Shown here: positions 55,049-59,253 of the stretch, in pieces
Layout: every line of letters begins with the position of its first letter
How positions within the stretch are numbered: position 1 is the first letter of the stretch
Source: Rhodobacter sp.
Lineage (GTDB): Bacteria; Pseudomonadota; Alphaproteobacteria; Rhodobacterales; Rhodobacteraceae
Direction of reading: 5' to 3'
Assembly: GCA_027490955.1 (NCBI GenBank)
Contig: JAIXXB010000032.1
Location: 60,102 to 124,101 of the forward strand
DNA length: 64,000 bases
Program-made: the position numbers and the translations under genes
Notes under the pieces: model-generated
Database searches by the model: none
What the model was told of the DNA's origin: nothing
What the model saw: the letters and a program-made list of their open reading frames with translations, nothing else

Positions 55049-55726
55049 TTGCCCCATGGCGCGGTTAGGGTGCACCAAGCGGAGGATAAGTTGCAAAAAG
55101 ACGCCTATACCTTGATTCTCGAGGCCATCGAGTCTGGCGATTTTGGTCCAGGGGCGCGGCTGGTGGAAAGCGAACTTGCCGAAAGGATTGGCCTGTCGCG
55201 CACCCCTGTGCGCGAGGCGCTGCAACGTCTGGAAACGCAAGGGATGCTGACGCGCGATGGGCGGTCTTTGATTGTGGCCAGCCTAGATCATACGCAACTG
55301 GCCGAGCTATACACCGTGCGCGCCGAGCTTGAGGGGCTGGCCGCCAAACTGGCCGCGCGCCATGCCACCGATGAAGAGATTTCGGTTTTGCGCCGCATGG
55401 TGCAAGATGACCGCGCGCTGCTGGGCGGCGATCCGCGCCTGCTGAGCCGCGCGAATAAGCGGTTTCACCGCCTGATCCACCTTGCGTCGCACAACCGCTT
55501 TTTGGTGCAGCAATTGGATTTGGTGCACCGATCTATGGCGCTGATGGCGACCACGTCTTTTGCTGCCGCAGGGCGCGATGAGGTTGCGCTGGGCGAACAT
55601 TCGGCCATTGTCGAGGCGATTGCCGCCCGCGATGGCGAGGGTGCCTTTGCTGCGCTGCGCGGGCATATTTCCAAAGCCTATGAGACGCGCTTGCGGGTGG
55701 ATGCGGGCGAGTTGAAGACGCGCTAG
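55049..55726 (+). CDS. GntR family regulator (FCD domain)
   Basis: LVESELAERIGLSRTPVREAL HTH and FH..I..ASHN FCD motif. Start uncertain. Confidence 0.9.
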   Translation: MPHGAVRVHQAEDKLQKDAYTLILEAIESGDFGPGARLVESELAERIGLSRTPVREALQRLETQGMLTRDGRSLIVASLDHTQLAELYTVRAELEGLAAKLAARHATDEEISVLRRMVQDDRALLGGDPRLLSRANKRFHRLIHLASHNRFLVQQLDLVHRSMALMATTSFAAAGRDEVALGEHSAIVEAIAARDGEGAFAALRGHISKAYETRLRVDAGELKTR

Positions 55727-55855: not shown

Positions 55856-57817
55856 CTAATCGTCAAACAGGCCATGGGCGGTTTTGTCCCAGTAAAACGG
55901 CTTGGTCAGCACTTCGTAGACGGCTTTGTAGGCGGCAAGGCTGGCCAGTAGGTTATAGGCCATCATCGTGGGCAGCCACAGCGGGTTGATGCGGTGGCCT
56001 GCGCGGGCAAGGCCGATGTAAGAGGTCAGCAGCATGGCTGCTTCGGCCAATAGGCCAAGACCCAAGGTGGTTTGCACGGGCAAGGGCAGGTTCACAGACA
56101 AAGGATGGCTGGCCACAAGCGGCAGCAGCCATAGGGCAGTGATGAAAGGGGCCAGCAGCGCCTGAAGCACTGTTCCTGCAAACATCATCTGCATGCCGAA
56201 AAACCGCCATGGCCCCAAATCGCGCAACAGCGCGGCAGGGCGGCGCATATGGTTGGCATAGGTCATGATATAGCCTTTGATCCAGCGCGAGCGTTGCTTG
56301 ATCCAAGGCACTGCGCGGCAGTTCGCCTCTTCATAAGTGGTGCTGTCAAGCAGCTGCATGTCATAGCCGCGCCGCACCAGTCTTAGGCCCAGATCAGCAT
56401 CTTCGGTGACGTTATGGGCATCCCACCCGCCAAGATCGCGGATGATATGGCTGCGAAAGAACAAGGTTGTACCGCCCAAGGGAAGGGCAAAGCCCATGCG
56501 CGCGAAACCCGGAAGCACAACGCGCCACCATGCGGCATATTCGATCGTGAAACAGCGCGCGAGCCAGTTGTGCTGGGGGTTGTAATAATCCAGCCGCCCT
56601 TGCAGGCAGGCAAGGCGCGCACCGCCTGCGGCAAATCCCTGCGCCACGGCGCGCAATTGGCCCGCCTCGGGCGCATCTTCGGCATCATAAACGCCGATGA
56701 TTTGGCCTTTGCAGTGATCCAGCCCATAGTTCAGCGCGCGCGGTTTGGTGCGGATCGTGCCTGTGGGCACAGGCAGCACCCGCATCCATGGCGGCAAGGT
56801 GATGCTGGCAAGTGCCGTGGCTGTGGCGCGGTCATTATCTTCGATCAGAAAGATCACCTCTTGCGCTGTGCTGGGGTAATCCAACCTTTCCAGCCGCCGA
56901 ATGAGGCGGGCGACGATACGGCTTTCGCAAAAGAGGGGCACGAGAAGCGAGATAAAGGGCAGGCTCGTATCTGAAGGCACAAGGTGCAGGTGGTGGGGCG
57001 GGCTGGGCAGGGGTTGCGCGCCTGCGGGCGGCGCGGGCAGGGGCTGCGGCCGCATCTGCGTGGGTGGGGCAGGCGGCGCAGGGCGGCGCAGCGCCGCCAA
57101 AAGCGCCGCCAATTTCAGCAGGGTTTGGCCATAAGATAAGGCCAGTGCAAGGCTCAGCAGGGCCAGCGCGGCCATGCTGGGTGCGGCGATCACGCCAGCG
57201 CCCACCAGCGCCGCAAAGGCGCATAGCGGGGCATAGGTGCGGCGGGGCGAGAAATTGCGGCAGCTGTCGGTTTCGGGCAGCAGCGTTTCGGCGCGGCGGG
57301 CAAGGGCCGTGCCTGCACGCGCCAGCACCTGCGCCGCAATCACGCGCCGCGGGGCAAGGGCCAGCACAAGCGCGCCAAACAGGGGGGTGAGGCGGGCGCG
57401 CAGCGCGGGGAAATCTTCGGGATAGGCGCAGACGATGACTGTCTTTGCGCCGATCCTGCGCCAAGGCAGCCAATGCTCGGCAAGGCAGCTTGCCGCATCG
57501 ATGCGCGCGATCAGGGCCGTGTCCACGGGGTGGCGCGTGAAATCGGCCACGCCCACCGCCCAATGCGCGGCCAGCGCGGCATAGGCCTCCTCCTCGTCCA
57601 TCAGACCGCGCGTCATCAGATGATCCACCAGATGGATTTGCGGGGTTTTCAGGGCGGCAAGCAGGGTCGGAGCAGAAATGCGCCCCGCGCGCAGCAGGGC
57701 AAGGCCGAAGGCGCAGCTGGCATGGTCAGCGAGATGCGGGCGATTGCGCCCCCTGCCATCTGGCACGGCGCGGGCATTCAGGCGGGCAATGGGGCGCAGC
57801 GAGGCGAGAGACATCAC
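55856..57817 (-). CDS. Processive GT2 glycosyltransferase with N-terminal MshEN/GspE-N-like domain (NfrB-like architecture)
   Basis: TKPRALN, YDAED, TED and QRSRW motifs plus TM helices. N-terminal FGLALLRAGRI..L..AL / LVDHL..RGLM repeats. AAGGAG RBS. Confidence 0.85.
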   Translation of the reverse strand: MMSLASLRPIARLNARAVPDGRGRNRPHLADHASCAFGLALLRAGRISAPTLLAALKTPQIHLVDHLMTRGLMDEEEAYAALAAHWAVGVADFTRHPVDTALIARIDAASCLAEHWLPWRRIGAKTVIVCAYPEDFPALRARLTPLFGALVLALAPRRVIAAQVLARAGTALARRAETLLPETDSCRNFSPRRTYAPLCAFAALVGAGVIAAPSMAALALLSLALALSYGQTLLKLAALLAALRRPAPPAPPTQMRPQPLPAPPAGAQPLPSPPHHLHLVPSDTSLPFISLLVPLFCESRIVARLIRRLERLDYPSTAQEVIFLIEDNDRATATALASITLPPWMRVLPVPTGTIRTKPRALNYGLDHCKGQIIGVYDAEDAPEAGQLRAVAQGFAAGGARLACLQGRLDYYNPQHNWLARCFTIEYAAWWRVVLPGFARMGFALPLGGTTLFFRSHIIRDLGGWDAHNVTEDADLGLRLVRRGYDMQLLDSTTYEEANCRAVPWIKQRSRWIKGYIMTYANHMRRPAALLRDLGPWRFFGMQMMFAGTVLQALLAPFITALWLLPLVASHPLSVNLPLPVQTTLGLGLLAEAAMLLTSYIGLARAGHRINPLWLPTMMAYNLLASLAAYKAVYEVLTKPFYWDKTAHGLFDD

Positions 57818-57857
57818 GGCTCCTTGGCGGAATATGTCCAGCCTAGGGGGCCAAGGG

Positions 57858-57884
57858 TTAAGACAGGGTTAACGACCCCTTAAC
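57858..57884. promoter_or_regulatory. Two overlapping CtrA boxes (TTAA-N7-TTAAC)
   Basis: TTAA at 57858, 57869 and 57880 (11-bp phasing): TTAA-GACAGGG-TTAA-CGACCCC-TTAAC. The consensus is met on both strands, ~40-65 nt upstream of the GT2 start. Confidence 0.75.
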
Positions 57885-57950: not shown

Positions 57951-58093
57951 AATCATGCCGCTACGCGGTGCGTTTAATCATGCCGCTACGCGGTGCCTTT
58001 AATCATGCCGCTGCGCGGTGCGTTTGGCTATGCCGCTGCGCGGTGCCTTTAATCATGCCGCTACGCGGTGCGTTTTATCATGCCGCTACGCGG
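57951..58093. repeat. 25-bp tandem repeat (5 full units + partial unit formed by the carA 3' end)
   Basis: Consensus AATCATGCCGCT(A/G)CGCGGTGC(G/C)TTT with units at 57951, 57976, 58001, 58026, 58051 and a partial unit at 58076. No spacers. Confidence 0.95.
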
Positions 58094-59253
58094 CGGGCGC
58101 GCATCGCATCGGCAAAGCGGGTAAAAAGATAGACGCTGTCCTGTGGGCCAGGGCTGGCCTCGGGGTGGTATTGCACGGAAAACACGGGCCTATTCACCAT
58201 GGCGATGCCGCAATTCGATCCGTCAAACAACGAGACATGGGTTTCCATCACATCTTTTGGCAAAGATTGACTATCCACAGTAAAGCCGTGGTTCATCGAG
58301 GTGATTTCAACCTTGCCCGTGGTGATATCTTTCACAGGATGGTTTGCGCCGTGATGGCCATGGTTCATTTTCACTGTGCGCCCGCCAAGGGCGAGTGCCA
58401 GCATCTGATGGCCCAAGCAAATGCCAAACACGGGCAGATTGGCGGCCAAAACGCCCTGAATCATCGGCACGGCATAGGCCCCTGTGGCCGCAGGATCGCC
58501 CGGCCCGTTGGACAGAAACACGCCTTCGGGGTTCAGCGCAAGCACATCTTCGGCGGTGGCAGTGGCAGGCAGAACGGTGACATCGCAGCCTGCCGAGGCA
58601 AGGCAGCGCAGAATATTGCGTTTCGCGCCGTAATCAATGGCGACCACGCGCAGCCCATCGCCCGAATGCTGATCTTGGCGGCGGCTGTAACCTTCGGGCC
58701 AAGCCCAGCGCATTTCGTCCCACTTATAACTTTGCGCGCAGGTGACATCGCGGGCAAGGTCTAGCCCCTCTAGCCCCTTCCACGCGCGCGCGCGCGCCAC
58801 CAGCGCGCCCACGTCAAAATTGCCCGCAGGGTCATGGGCAAGGCAGACATGTGGCGCGCCTTGCTGGCGAATGGCGCGGGTCAGGCGGCGGGTGTCGATG
58901 CCGCCAATCCCGATGCGGCCGCGCCGCCCCATCCATGTTTGCAAATCGGACGTGGCACGCCAATTGGACGGCTGCGTTGGATCCCATTTCACCACCATGC
59001 CAGCGGCCACGGGGATGGCGGTTTCGTCATCTTCATCGGTCACGCCCGTATTGCCGATATGGGGAAAGGTGAAGGTGACGACTTGGCCCGCATAAGACGG
59101 GTCGGTCATAATTTCCTGATAGCCCGTCATTGCGGTGTTGAACACCAGTTCCGCCACCACCTCGCCCGTGGCCCCAAAGCCGTGGCCATAAAACACCGAA
59201 CCATCGGACAGCGCGATGCAGGCGGTGGGTTTTTGGCTGGGGGCATGTGGCAT
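58078..59253 (-). CDS. carA: Carbamoyl-phosphate synthase small subunit
   Basis: FNTAMTGYQE, SNGPGDP, GICLGHQ, GHHGANHPV and QYHPEASPGP motifs. Confidence 0.97.
   Translation of the reverse strand: MPHAPSQKPTACIALSDGSVFYGHGFGATGEVVAELVFNTAMTGYQEIMTDPSYAGQVVTFTFPHIGNTGVTDEDDETAIPVAAGMVVKWDPTQPSNWRATSDLQTWMGRRGRIGIGGIDTRRLTRAIRQQGAPHVCLAHDPAGNFDVGALVARARAWKGLEGLDLARDVTCAQSYKWDEMRWAWPEGYSRRQDQHSGDGLRVVAIDYGAKRNILRCLASAGCDVTVLPATATAEDVLALNPEGVFLSNGPGDPAATGAYAVPMIQGVLAANLPVFGICLGHQMLALALGGRTVKMNHGHHGANHPVKDITTGKVEITSMNHGFTVDSQSLPKDVMETHVSLFDGSNCGIAMVNRPVFSVQYHPEASPGPQDSVYLFTRFADAMRARRVAA

What the first reader, a model, noticed from the sequence alone, without database searches (positions are those of the whole stretch)
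55856..57884. CtrA-boxed, MshEN-like-domain processive glycosyltransferase: candidate cell-cycle and c-di-GMP gated surface polymer
Seen in the sequence: three TTAA half-sites in exact 11-bp phase give two overlapping perfect TTAA-N7-TTAAC boxes just upstream of the gene. The protein has two tandem degenerate MshEN-like motifs (FGLALLRAGRISAPTLLAAL; LVDHLMTRGLMDEEEAYAAL) ahead of a D,D,D,QxxRW synthase domain. Established: TTAA-N7-TTAAC is the CtrA site, MshEN binds c-di-GMP, and E. coli NfrB is a c-di-GMP-controlled GT making a phage-receptor glycan. Inference: a doubly controlled single-gene polysaccharide synthase, perhaps for polar adhesion or phage/GTA reception. The leading Arg residues of the canonical motif are absent, so ligand binding is uncertain.
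Basis: partly seen in the sequence, partly recalled or inferred. Interest (0 to 1): 0.7.

Follow-up and report, generated by a model that had tools for sequence, protein, structure and literature searches.

The report
CtrA-boxed sugar-polymer synthase, core Rhodobacteraceae gene
This gene encodes a membrane enzyme that builds and exports a sugar polymer; nearly all bacteria of its family keep a binding site for the lifestyle regulator CtrA in front of it, but in this lineage its built-in c-di-GMP sensor domain has lost most of the residues that normally bind the signal.

Summary
Three TTAA half-sites 11 bp apart (57858-57883) form the only two TTAA-N7-TTAA sites in the 64-kb window, 44-70 nt upstream of a 652-aa gene. 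The protein has a complete MshEN fold, two transmembrane helices, a GT2 core with the motifs of processive synthases, and three more transmembrane helices.

The CtrA reading is strongly supported:
- A perfect box lies in the promoter window of 91 of 92 orthologous loci, and none in the other 388 kb of those loci.
- The gene occurs in 391 of 401 high-quality Rhodobacteraceae genomes, almost always between carA and a convergent GntR gene.
- The genome (closest named relative: Cypionkella) has ctrA and only 10 such boxes. The others precede dprA, comF, radC, a chemoreceptor, a PAS protein and an RTX protein.

"Cell-cycle gated" overstates this, because CtrA in this order runs a motility, gene-transfer-agent and DNA-uptake programme.

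Direct c-di-GMP gating is doubtful here. Both 24-residue motifs fail even the published relaxed pattern, and the spacer is 2 residues instead of 5.

The MshEN-GT2 architecture was catalogued in 2016. A possible SD-masking leader hairpin was also seen. Function and the sign of regulation remain untested.

The parts
55856..57814 (-). Coding sequence of the MshEN-GT2 synthase (652 aa from ATG 57814; ORF listed from GTG 57817; stop at 55856-55858)
   Evidence: ORF, translation. SD AAGGAG lies 5 nt before the ATG. Orthologues start MS.TSLRP. A 99%-identical database protein is 652 aa.
57287..57733 (-). N-terminal cytoplasmic MshEN-fold domain (residues ~29-177: four-helix MshEN_N part 29-86, alpha/beta MshEN_C part 100-177)
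   Evidence: Pfam PF05157 at residues 89-162, 30.4 bits. The NfrB model matches residues 27-130 to the MshEN part of NfrB. AF2 model and Foldseek hits to 5HTL, PilF GSPII, XpsE-N and PilB-N.
57563..57712 (-). Degenerate tandem 24-residue motifs (residues 36-59 AFGLALLRAGRISAPTLLAALKTP; spacer QI; residues 62-85 HLVDHLMTRGLMDEEEAYAALAAH)
   Evidence: Both fail the relaxed pattern of Wang et al. 2016. A 3-residue spacer deletion is specific to the window's clade L001-L007.
57086..57244 (-). Two N-terminal transmembrane helices (residues 192-244), followed by a Pro-rich disordered linker (245-280)
   Evidence: Hydropathy. AF2 helices H192-211 and H213-244; pLDDT below 50 for residues 252-279.
56243..56965 (-). 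GT2 catalytic domain (residues ~285-525) with EDND, DAED, TED and QRSRW
   Evidence: Pfam Glyco_trans_2_3 and Glyco_tranf_2_3. Motifs. BcsA alignment. Foldseek hits to HAS, BcsA and chitin synthase.
55904..56212 (-). C-terminal transmembrane helices (residues ~536-638), predicted to form the translocation channel with the interface helices
   Evidence: AF2 helices H536-568, H579-606 and H612-638. Structural similarity to membrane-integrated synthases.
57857..57884 (.). Three phased TTAA half-sites forming two overlapping CtrA-type boxes (proximal 57858-57872, distal 57869-57883), 44-70 nt upstream of the ATG
   Evidence: Conserved in orthologous promoters.
57822..57856 (-). Leader inverted repeat: CCTTGGC (57850-57856), directly 3' of the box, can pair with GCCAAGG (57822-57828), which overlaps the SD AAGGAG (57820-57825). 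This is a candidate SD-masking hairpin.
   Evidence: RNAfold on 46 orthologous leaders. Pair counts within the genus: 78% paired against 30-59% for slid controls, 5 pairs with compensatory changes, covariation exceeded by 0 of 500 shuffles. Moderate support only, because the sequences are related.
58078..59253 (-). carA, the conserved upstream neighbour on the same strand (context)
   Evidence: ORF. carA lies upstream in 103 of 108 orthologous loci. No terminator was predicted on the - strand between carA and the synthase.
55049..55726 (+). No export partner gene is adjacent.
   Evidence: ORF. Present in 95 of 108 orthologous loci.

Best explanation
The gene encodes an inner-membrane, single-subunit processive family-2 glycosyltransferase. 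Like cellulose or hyaluronan synthases, it should polymerise a nucleotide-sugar and thread the chain through its own membrane channel. An N-terminal cytoplasmic MshEN-fold domain precedes the catalytic part.

It is the orthologue, in a Cypionkella-like lineage, of a core Rhodobacteraceae gene of the 'MshEN - Glyco_trans_2_3' type (example Rsph17029_0522). That gene sits almost invariably between carA and a convergent GntR gene.

Its transcription is most likely controlled directly by phosphorylated CtrA, bound to the conserved TTAA-N7-TTAA box or boxes just upstream. This places the polymer in the CckA-ChpT-CtrA lifestyle regulon (motility, gene transfer agent, DNA uptake) and not in a Caulobacter-style cell-cycle circuit.

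I judge activation somewhat more likely than repression (about 60:40). That estimate rests only on the established rule that full boxes near the -35 region activate.

In this lineage the MshEN domain keeps its fold and is under purifying selection, but it has lost much of the canonical c-di-GMP contact signature. Direct c-di-GMP gating is therefore unlikely here (about 25%), and the domain probably acts as a regulatory or partner-binding module. c-di-GMP could still act indirectly through CckA.

Shown: sequence features, fold, conservation, synteny, regulon context. Inferred: CtrA binding, sign of control, polymer synthesis and export, role of the domain.
For: - Boxes: unique in the window and rare in the genome.
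- Promoter conservation: a perfect box in the promoter window of 91 of 92 orthologous loci, and 0 boxes in the remaining 387.6 kb. By start-codon prediction, 26 of 26 genus relatives and 75 of 79 named loci carry it. Consensus gTTAACc-N3-yrTTAACC.
- Distribution: gene present in 391 of 401 family genomes and 356 of 366 genera. carA-GT-GntR synteny in 92 of 108 loci.
- Regulator: ctrA present, NF045991 421.8 bits against a cut-off of 350.
- Regulon context: the other perfect boxes precede dprA (also with three half-sites), comF, radC, a chemoreceptor gene, a PAS protein and an RTX protein.
- Protein: MshEN by Pfam and by fold. GT2 motifs and HAS/BcsA-like full-length model, pLDDT 88.8.
- Motif erosion, judged against the published contact residues and the XpsE non-binder.
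- Six homologues from other alphaproteobacterial families lack the box and, by my reading of their N-termini, have more canonical motifs.
Against:
- No sigma-70-like promoter could be placed, so the box position relative to the transcription start is unknown.
- A Roseobacter denitrificans study lists 'xagB' among genes up-regulated in CtrA-phosphorelay mutants (PMC13392355). xagB is the KEGG-style name that JGI gives this family. If that gene is the orthologue, it points to repression.
- Wang et al. 2016 listed the R. sphaeroides member of this architecture as a predicted c-di-GMP binder. The family also conserves several pocket residues: L63, D65, H85 and W86. Binding by a modified site therefore cannot be excluded.
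- No outer-membrane export partner is adjacent, so the product might stay periplasmic or be a glycolipid.
Confidence: 0.65

Rival explanations
1. The enzyme is doubly gated: CtrA sets transcription, and c-di-GMP bound to the N-terminal MshEN domain allosterically switches on the synthase, as in E. coli NfrB.
For: - MshEN fold with 5HTL (c-di-GMP-bound MshE) among the top structural matches.
- The NfrB model aligns to residues 27-130.
- The hydrophobic positions F37, L52, L56, L63 and L82 and the Gly at 38, 45 and 71 are retained.
- The R. sphaeroides member of the architecture was listed as a predicted binder.
- The genome encodes 3 GGDEF proteins.
Against: - Both motifs fail the relaxed published pattern, and only 3 of 121 close homologues have even one fitting motif.
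- Relative to MshE the changes are R9A, I19R, Q32P, R38H, G40V, L54A and Q61H. XpsE, which does not bind, is changed at I19, R38, G40, L54 and Q61 among others.
- A bulky residue at the motif-I glycine of NfrB (G491L) gave the strongest functional defect. Here the corresponding motif-II glycine is Val.
- The spacer is 2 residues, not 5.
- The fold does not separate binders from non-binders.
Confidence: 0.25
2. CtrA binds the boxes but represses the gene. The polymer would be made when CtrA~P is low (sessile, biofilm state), and the three phased half-sites would occlude the core promoter.
For: - 'xagB' is reported as up-regulated, together with more biofilm, in ctrA, chpT and cckA mutants of R. 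denitrificans. JGI names homologues of this protein XagB.
- The box ends only 39 nt before the start codon, and a conserved leader hairpin starts right after it. If that hairpin is in the mRNA, the transcript starts at or upstream of the box.
- CtrA represses promoters where its site overlaps the -10 region (cited in PMC6180460).
Against: - The identity of that xagB with the orthologue is untested.
- Full TTAA-N7-TTAA sites near the -35 region are typical of activation.
- The same genome uses similar boxes at dprA and comF, which are CtrA-activated in R. capsulatus (references).
- Read-through from carA could be the source of hairpin-containing RNA.
Confidence: 0.3
3. The enzyme is not an exopolysaccharide synthase. 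It would make a periplasmic or lipid-linked glycan, or glycosylate a protein such as flagellin, which would explain the lack of any export partner.
For: - There is no BcsB-, PgaA/B-, NfrA- or Wza-like neighbour, and synteny is only carA and GntR.
- Non-processive GT2 enzymes (PcManGT, WrtF) also appear among the structural hits.
- The R. denitrificans authors raise flagellar glycosylation for their NfrB-like GT.
Against: - QRSRW, TED and DAED are present, with five transmembrane helices and interface helices.
- The best structural matches are HAS, BcsA and chitin synthase, all synthase-translocases.
Confidence: 0.2
4. The conserved TTAA-N7-TTAA element is not a CtrA site. It would be the operator of another factor (for example the neighbouring GntR regulator) or a structural element of the carA 3' region.
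For: No binding data exist. The GntR gene is as syntenic as the box.
Against: - The element matches the CtrA consensus exactly, including the TTAAC flank, in about 90 species, while the 7 internal bases vary freely.
- The same motif marks dprA, comF and chemoreceptor promoters in this genome.
- Out-group homologues lack it.
Confidence: 0.07

Closest known systems
'MshEN - Glyco_trans_2_3' architecture group of Wang et al. 2016 (example Rhodobacter sphaeroides Rsph17029_0522, ABN75638; Nat Commun 7:12481, Supplementary Tables 3-4)
   Same: Same domain order (N-terminal MshEN, then membrane GT2) and the same bacterial family. The published N-terminal fragment aligns in register with residues 41-92.
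   Different: The published entry is a catalogue entry with a prediction of c-di-GMP binding and has never been characterised. The window protein has a 3-residue shorter spacer and further substitutions (R to H, L to A in motif II). CtrA control is not mentioned there.
E. coli NfrB (c-di-GMP-activated GT2 that makes the phage N4 receptor glycan; PMC8669469, PMC8669472)
   Same: A GT2 with DxD, TED and QxxRW motifs fused to an MshEN domain, anchored in the inner membrane. The NfrB HMM aligns to the MshEN part.
   Different: The domain order is reversed (MshEN is C-terminal in NfrB). NfrB has fully conserved motifs and measured binding (Kd about 1 uM), and it works with NfrA and YbcH, encoded in the same operon. 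Here there is no partner gene, the motifs are eroded, and the whole-protein score is 28 bits against a cut-off of 1170.
BcsA cellulose synthase and class-I hyaluronan synthases (synthase-translocases)
   Same: Best sequence match (BcsA GT core, E about 6e-7) and best structural matches (HAS, BcsA, chitin synthase). Same catalytic motifs.
   Different: No PilZ domain and no BcsB. There are 2 + 3 transmembrane helices instead of 8. The product is unknown.
Roseobacter denitrificans RD1_1962 ('NfrB homologue') and the CtrA phosphorelay in phage resistance (PMC13392355, 2026)
   Same: A glycosyltransferase of the same bacterial family. Its loss abolishes phage adsorption, and it was selected together with ctrA, chpT and cckA mutations.
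   Different: Orthology was not tested because the genome could not be reached. That paper does not report a CtrA box or an MshEN domain for the gene.
Xanthomonas XagB (xagABCD biofilm polysaccharide operon; PMC3609779)
   Same: JGI gives the name 'glycosyltransferase XagB' to several close homologues. XagB is a GT2 needed for a biofilm polysaccharide under c-di-GMP-linked (RpfG) control.
   Different: The relation rests on an automatic name and was not tested here. Xag is a four-gene operon, whereas this is a lone gene.

Membership tests
MshEN domain (Pfam PF05157 / GSPII_E N-terminal fold) | Match to the family profile above the curated cut-off | tested here: met
   30.4 bits against a cut-off of 23.1, residues 89-162.
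MshEN domain (Pfam PF05157 / GSPII_E N-terminal fold) | Four-helix MshEN_N subdomain plus alpha/beta MshEN_C subdomain | tested here: met
   AF2 model with pLDDT above 95 for residues 40-170. Foldseek: 5HTL TM 0.72-0.76, PilF GSPII, XpsE-N, PilB-N, all with probability 1.00.
c-di-GMP-binding MshEN receptors (Wang et al. 2016) | Two tandem 24-residue motifs RLGxx(L/V/I)(L/V/I)xxG(L/V/I)(L/V/I)xxxxLxxxLxxQ, or the relaxed form [RKPN]hGxxhhxx[GAS]hhxxxxhxxxhxx[QNKRYWST] | tested here: not met
   No match to the relaxed pattern in either half. Motif I fails at positions 1, 11 and 24. Motif II fails at positions 1, 3 and 24 (positions 1, 3, 17 and 24 of the strict motif).
c-di-GMP-binding MshEN receptors (Wang et al. 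2016) | 5-residue spacer between the two motifs (53-residue unit) | tested here: not met
   The spacer is 2 residues (Q60, I61). The 3-residue deletion is shared by L001-L007 only.
c-di-GMP-binding MshEN receptors (Wang et al. 2016) | Measured specific binding of c-di-GMP | not testable with these tools
   Needs DRaCALA, ITC or MST on residues 1-190.
Processive membrane GT2 synthases (BcsA/HAS/chitin synthase/NfrB type) | D, DxD, TED and QxxRW catalytic signatures | tested here: met
   EDND 326, DAED 378, TED 471, QRSRW 508. They align with the BcsA motifs and are invariant in 118 homologues.
Processive membrane GT2 synthases (BcsA/HAS/chitin synthase/NfrB type) | GT domain embedded between transmembrane helices that form a channel | tested here: met
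   AF2 pLDDT 88.8, pTM 0.88. Helices 192-244 and 536-638. The top 26 Foldseek hits are HAS, BcsA and chitin synthase, apart from two chains of the mannosyltransferase PcManGT. This rests on a predicted structure only.
NfrB (NCBIfam NF008411) | Whole-protein score above the equivalog cut-off; GT2 N-terminal and MshEN C-terminal; nfrA/ybcH partners | tested here: not met
   28.1 bits against 1170, with a match to the MshEN part only. The domain order is reversed. The neighbours are carA and GntR.
BcsA cellulose synthase (TIGR03030 / NF008558) | Equivalog score; C-terminal PilZ domain | tested here: not met
   45.6 bits against 699 and 29.6 against 992. No PilZ hit in Pfam.
CtrA regulon (direct target) | TTAA-N7-TTAA(C) site in the promoter region | tested here: met
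   Two overlapping perfect sites at 57858-57884.
CtrA regulon (direct target) | CtrA encoded in the genome | tested here: met
   NF045991 CtrA equivalog, 421.8 bits against a cut-off of 350, at C41:20733-21407.
CtrA regulon (direct target) | Site conserved in orthologous promoters (phylogenetic footprint) | tested here: met
   91 of 92 loci, with 0 sites elsewhere in 387.6 kb. 75 of 79 named species.
CtrA regulon (direct target) | CtrA~P binding and CtrA-dependent expression | not testable with these tools
The held literature gives no data for this gene. The D. shibae supplement was truncated before the gene could be found.
XagB (KEGG-style name used by JGI) | Orthology to Xanthomonas XagB and xagACD partner genes | not tested
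   Only the name on homologues was seen. No xagA/C/D-like neighbours were seen (synteny).

The most novel reading that the evidence does not exclude
The polymer would be the family-wide surface receptor, or co-receptor, for gene transfer agents and GTA-like siphophages. CtrA would switch it on together with the DNA-uptake genes dprA and comF, which carry the same boxes in this genome, so that cells become recipients.

In Rhodobacteraceae the ancestral direct c-di-GMP switch of the enzyme would have been partly replaced by transcriptional control through the c-di-GMP-sensitive CckA-CtrA relay. An SD-masking leader hairpin would keep carA read-through transcripts from being translated.
Probability: 0.15. 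Interest if true: 0.8.

Novelty: new variant of a known kind. Interest (0 to 1): 0.55.

Why it matters
- An unstudied core gene. It is present in about 97% of Rhodobacteraceae genomes and carries one of the best-conserved CtrA boxes one could ask for, yet no held paper assigns it a product, a phenotype or a place in the CtrA regulon. It is therefore a clean, directly testable candidate for the surface polymer that the CtrA 'swim, stick or exchange DNA' programme controls.
- Link to phage and GTA work. It could connect to the 2026 finding that Roseobacter phage resistance maps to the CtrA relay and to an NfrB-like glycosyltransferase. It could also bear on the unidentified secondary receptor of gene transfer agents.
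- Evolution of a sensor domain. Homologues outside the family look canonical and have no CtrA box. Rhodobacteraceae orthologues have the box and, in this genus, eroded motifs. This is a natural series for asking how much of the 53-residue MshEN motif is needed for c-di-GMP binding.

Tried and rejected
- Orthology with R. denitrificans RD1_1962. I searched relatives of a Planktotalea genome, 400 high-quality family genomes and 400 further family genomes with a pTB1 plasmid probe. I also checked the one candidate with the right size (G481), whose chromosome length did not fit. The genome was not in any sample, so the question stays open.
- Expression data. The D. shibae CtrA-mutant table is truncated in the held copy, and neither carA nor the GT could be found. 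The C. sphaeroides supplements have no hit.
- Promoter and terminator scan. No sigma-70-type promoter, and no terminator on the - strand between carA and the gene. The transcription start could not be placed.
A hand-set structure on an 18-sequence subset had to be used.
- PDB sequence search found only the BcsA GT core. No solved close relative exists.
- NfrB or BcsA membership was rejected on scores and architecture.
- A chance origin of the boxes was rejected.
Full report
**1. What is in the sequence**

On the + strand, TTAA occurs at 57858, 57869 and 57880, exactly 11 bp apart. This gives GTTAAGACAGGGTTAACGACCCCTTAAC. A pattern search finds TTAA-N7-TTAAC four times in the window, all at this place: two overlapping boxes, each readable on both strands. 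Shuffles give 0.13. The looser TTAA-N7-TTAA also occurs only here.

In the whole 2.96-Mb assembly (59% G+C) there are just 10 TTAA-N7-TTAA sites. About 2 are expected from the TTAA frequency, and other spacings give 1-6.

The gene lies on the minus strand (ORF 55856..57817). The AAGGAG at 57820-57825 and the orthologous N-termini (MS.TSLRP) point to ATG 57814 as the start, so the product is 652 aa. The half-sites then lie at -47, -58 and -69 from the ATG.

**2. The protein**

- *Domains.* Pfam finds MshEN (residues 89-162, 30.4 bits, above the cut-off) and three GT2 models. The NfrB model of NCBIfam matches only residues 27-130, to the MshEN part of NfrB.
- *N-terminal model.* An AlphaFold2 model of residues 1-195 built on 119 homologues is confident (pLDDT above 95 for 40-170). 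It shows four helices (29-86) followed by an alpha/beta unit (100-177).
- *N-terminal fold search.* The best PDB matches are all GSPII/MshEN domains: PilF GSPII-A and GSPII-B, MshE with c-di-GMP (5HTL, TM 0.72-0.76), XpsE-N and PilB-N. The list contains both binders and non-binders, so the fold says nothing about ligand binding.
- *Full-length model.* pLDDT is 88.8 and pTM 0.88. It has two transmembrane helices (192-244), a disordered Pro-rich linker, the GT-A domain (285-525), interface helices and three more transmembrane helices (536-638).
- *Full-length fold search.* The best matches are hyaluronan synthases, BcsA and chitin synthases, the synthase-translocase class.
- *Catalytic motifs.* EDND, DAED, TED and QRSRW are present and invariant in 118 homologues.

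**3. How good is the c-di-GMP site?**

Wang et al. 2016 define two 24-residue motifs joined by a 5-residue spacer. They give a relaxed search pattern and list the substitutions that explain why XpsE does not bind.

Mapped onto MshE, the window protein reads as follows.

| MshE position | Window residue | State |
|---|---|---|
| R9 | A | changed |
| L10 | F | conservative |
| G11 | G | kept |
| G18 | G | kept |
| I19 | R | changed |
| L25 | L | kept |
| L29 | L | kept |
| Q32 | P | changed |
| spacer | QI (2 residues, not 5) | shortened |
| R38 | H | changed |
| L39 | L | kept |
| G40 | V | changed |
| G47 | G | kept |
| L54 | A | changed |
| L58 | L | kept |
| Q61 | H | changed |

- Neither half fits the relaxed pattern. 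Among 121 close homologues only 3 have even one fitting motif.
- The 3-residue spacer deletion and the L54A change are specific to the window's own clade, L001-L007. The deletion also shows as a gap against the published R. sphaeroides fragment.
- In NfrB a bulky residue at the motif-I glycine (G491L) gave the strongest defect. Here the corresponding motif-II glycine is Val.
- Against this, the domain as a whole is well conserved, and L63, D65, H85 and W86 are nearly invariant in the family. Wang et al. listed the R. sphaeroides member as a predicted binder.

My estimate is that canonical c-di-GMP binding by this protein is unlikely (about 25%) but not excluded.

By my reading, homologues from other alphaproteobacterial families have much more canonical motifs, for example PIGELLVAKGLL...Q / 5 residues / RFGDIILSKGWV... 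in L117. The genome does encode three GGDEF proteins.

**4. The box is a phylogenetic footprint**

- *Within the genus.* All 26 orthologous promoters with an identifiable start carry TTAA-N7-TTAA at -40 to -69. The eight closest have three half-sites and the rest have one box.
- *Named species.* In 80 named species from about 30 genera (Pseudorhodobacter, Tabrizicola, Gemmobacter, Thioclava, Celeribacter, Aliiroseovarius, Planktotalea, Frigidibacter and others), 75 of 79 usable loci have a perfect box and 2 more have one mismatch.
- *Anchored test.* I anchored on a conserved protein motif to avoid start-codon errors. 91 of 92 loci have a perfect box in a 330-bp promoter window (3.4 per kb). 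There is not a single box in the other 387.6 kb of the same loci.
- *Consensus.* It is gTTAACc-N3-yrTTAACC, with free internal positions.
- *Out-groups.* Six homologues from other alphaproteobacterial families have no box.

**5. Distribution and context**

The gene is found in 391 of 401 high-quality genomes of the family (356 of 366 genera). carA lies upstream on the same strand in 103 of 108 loci. The convergent GntR gene lies downstream in 95 of 108, and both are present in 92 of 108. No export or modification partner is adjacent.

The closest named relative is a Cypionkella MAG (75% identity).

**6. Regulon context in this genome**

CtrA is encoded (NF045991, 421.8 bits). The eight other perfect boxes lie at six loci:
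- upstream of dprA, again as three phased half-sites
- upstream of comF
- upstream of radC
- upstream of a Cache-HAMP chemoreceptor gene
- upstream of a PAS protein gene
- between an RTX protein gene and a divergent TPR-like gene

One further site lies in an AT-rich stretch with no credible gene nearby.

In R. capsulatus, dprA, comEC, comF and comM are the CtrA-dependent genes for recipient capability toward gene transfer agents (references 23 and 24 in PMC10883770). So the motif marks the expected regulon. In Rhodobacterales this relay governs motility, GTA, quorum sensing and differentiation, and not an essential cell cycle (PMC4046655). The term 'cell-cycle gated' should therefore be replaced by 'CtrA-phosphorelay controlled'.

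**7. Sign of control and the leader**

No sigma-70-type promoter or terminator could be placed. In Caulobacter, full sites near the -35 region activate, and sites over the -10 region repress.

The distance from the box to the start codon is nearly fixed: 42 nt of leader in most genus members. The bases directly after the box can pair with the Shine-Dalgarno region:
- CCTTGGC / GCCAAGG in the window
- CTCCTAGG / CCTAGGAG in L006
- CCTTCGGAC / GTCCGGAGG in L010

In 18 genus leaders, 78% of cells pair, against 30-59% when the partners are slid. Five pairs show compensatory changes, and no shuffle out of 500 reaches the covariation score. Outside the genus the hairpin is less regular: in 24 of 46 leaders the SD pairs with the first 14 nt.

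This is moderate evidence, from related sequences, for an SD-masking hairpin. One reading (inference) is that transcripts reading through from carA carry the mask, whereas a CtrA-dependent start inside the hairpin would not. The other reading is that the transcript starts at the box and CtrA represses.

A 2026 study of R. denitrificans reports 'xagB' among genes up-regulated in ctrA, chpT and cckA mutants. It also shows that a separate 'NfrB-homologous' glycosyltransferase, RD1_1962, is needed for phage adsorption. JGI names homologues of the window protein XagB. I could not reach that genome to test either identity.

**8. What is known and what is new**

The architecture 'MshEN - Glyco_trans_2_3' is listed in Wang et al. 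2016 with R. sphaeroides Rsph17029_0522 as the example. NfrB is the only characterised MshEN-GT2 fusion, and its domain order is the reverse.

I found no paper that links this gene to CtrA.

**9. Verdict**

This is a real gene with a real and exceptionally conserved regulatory element. It is a new variant of a known kind: a receptor-domain-fused processive GT2. It has a well-founded but untested assignment to the CtrA regulon and, in this lineage, an eroded c-di-GMP signature. The product, the sign of regulation and the role of the MshEN domain are open and easy to test.

Noticed in passing
window 57951-58093: A 25-bp tandem repeat, 5.7 copies at 87% match (unit AATCATGCCGCTACGCGGTGCGTTT). It overlaps the last codons and stop of carA (58078) and fills much of the carA-synthase spacer. 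The first-stage reader also noted it.
   Followed up: partly
window 57822-57856 (- strand): A leader inverted repeat. The 7 nt right after the CtrA box (CCTTGGC) are complementary to GCCAAGG, which overlaps the Shine-Dalgarno sequence. Equivalent pairings with different sequences occur in most orthologues of the genus, with a fixed 42-nt leader.
   Followed up: yes
own genome C39:54360-54385 (outside the window): The dprA promoter carries the same arrangement of three TTAA half-sites 11 bp apart. Other perfect boxes precede comF, radC, a chemoreceptor gene, a PAS protein and an RTX protein. In this genome the perfect-box set is dominated by DNA-uptake genes.
   Followed up: partly
window 57812-57817: The ORF list starts the gene at GTG 57817. 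The adjacent ATG 57814 has the better spacing to the SD and matches the length of the 99%-identical database protein (652 aa).
   Followed up: yes
loci L114-L119 (other alphaproteobacterial families): More distant MshEN-GT2 homologues (38-43% identity) have no TTAA-N7-TTAA upstream. By my reading, several have near-canonical tandem MshEN motifs with a 5-residue spacer, which suggests that the box was gained and the motif eroded within Rhodobacteraceae. The sample is only six loci.
   Followed up: partly
residues 172-187 of the protein (window about 57257-57304): An 'AETR..x..(E/D)SCR' segment between the MshEN domain and the first transmembrane helix is nearly invariant (S185 and R187 invariant, C186 at least 90%) across 118 homologues. 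No function is assigned to it.
   Followed up: no
G062:C83:13694-15547 (genome of locus L098, Aliiruegeria lutimaris): The orthologue in this genome has one in-frame TGA. This may be a pseudogene or a sequencing error.
   Followed up: no
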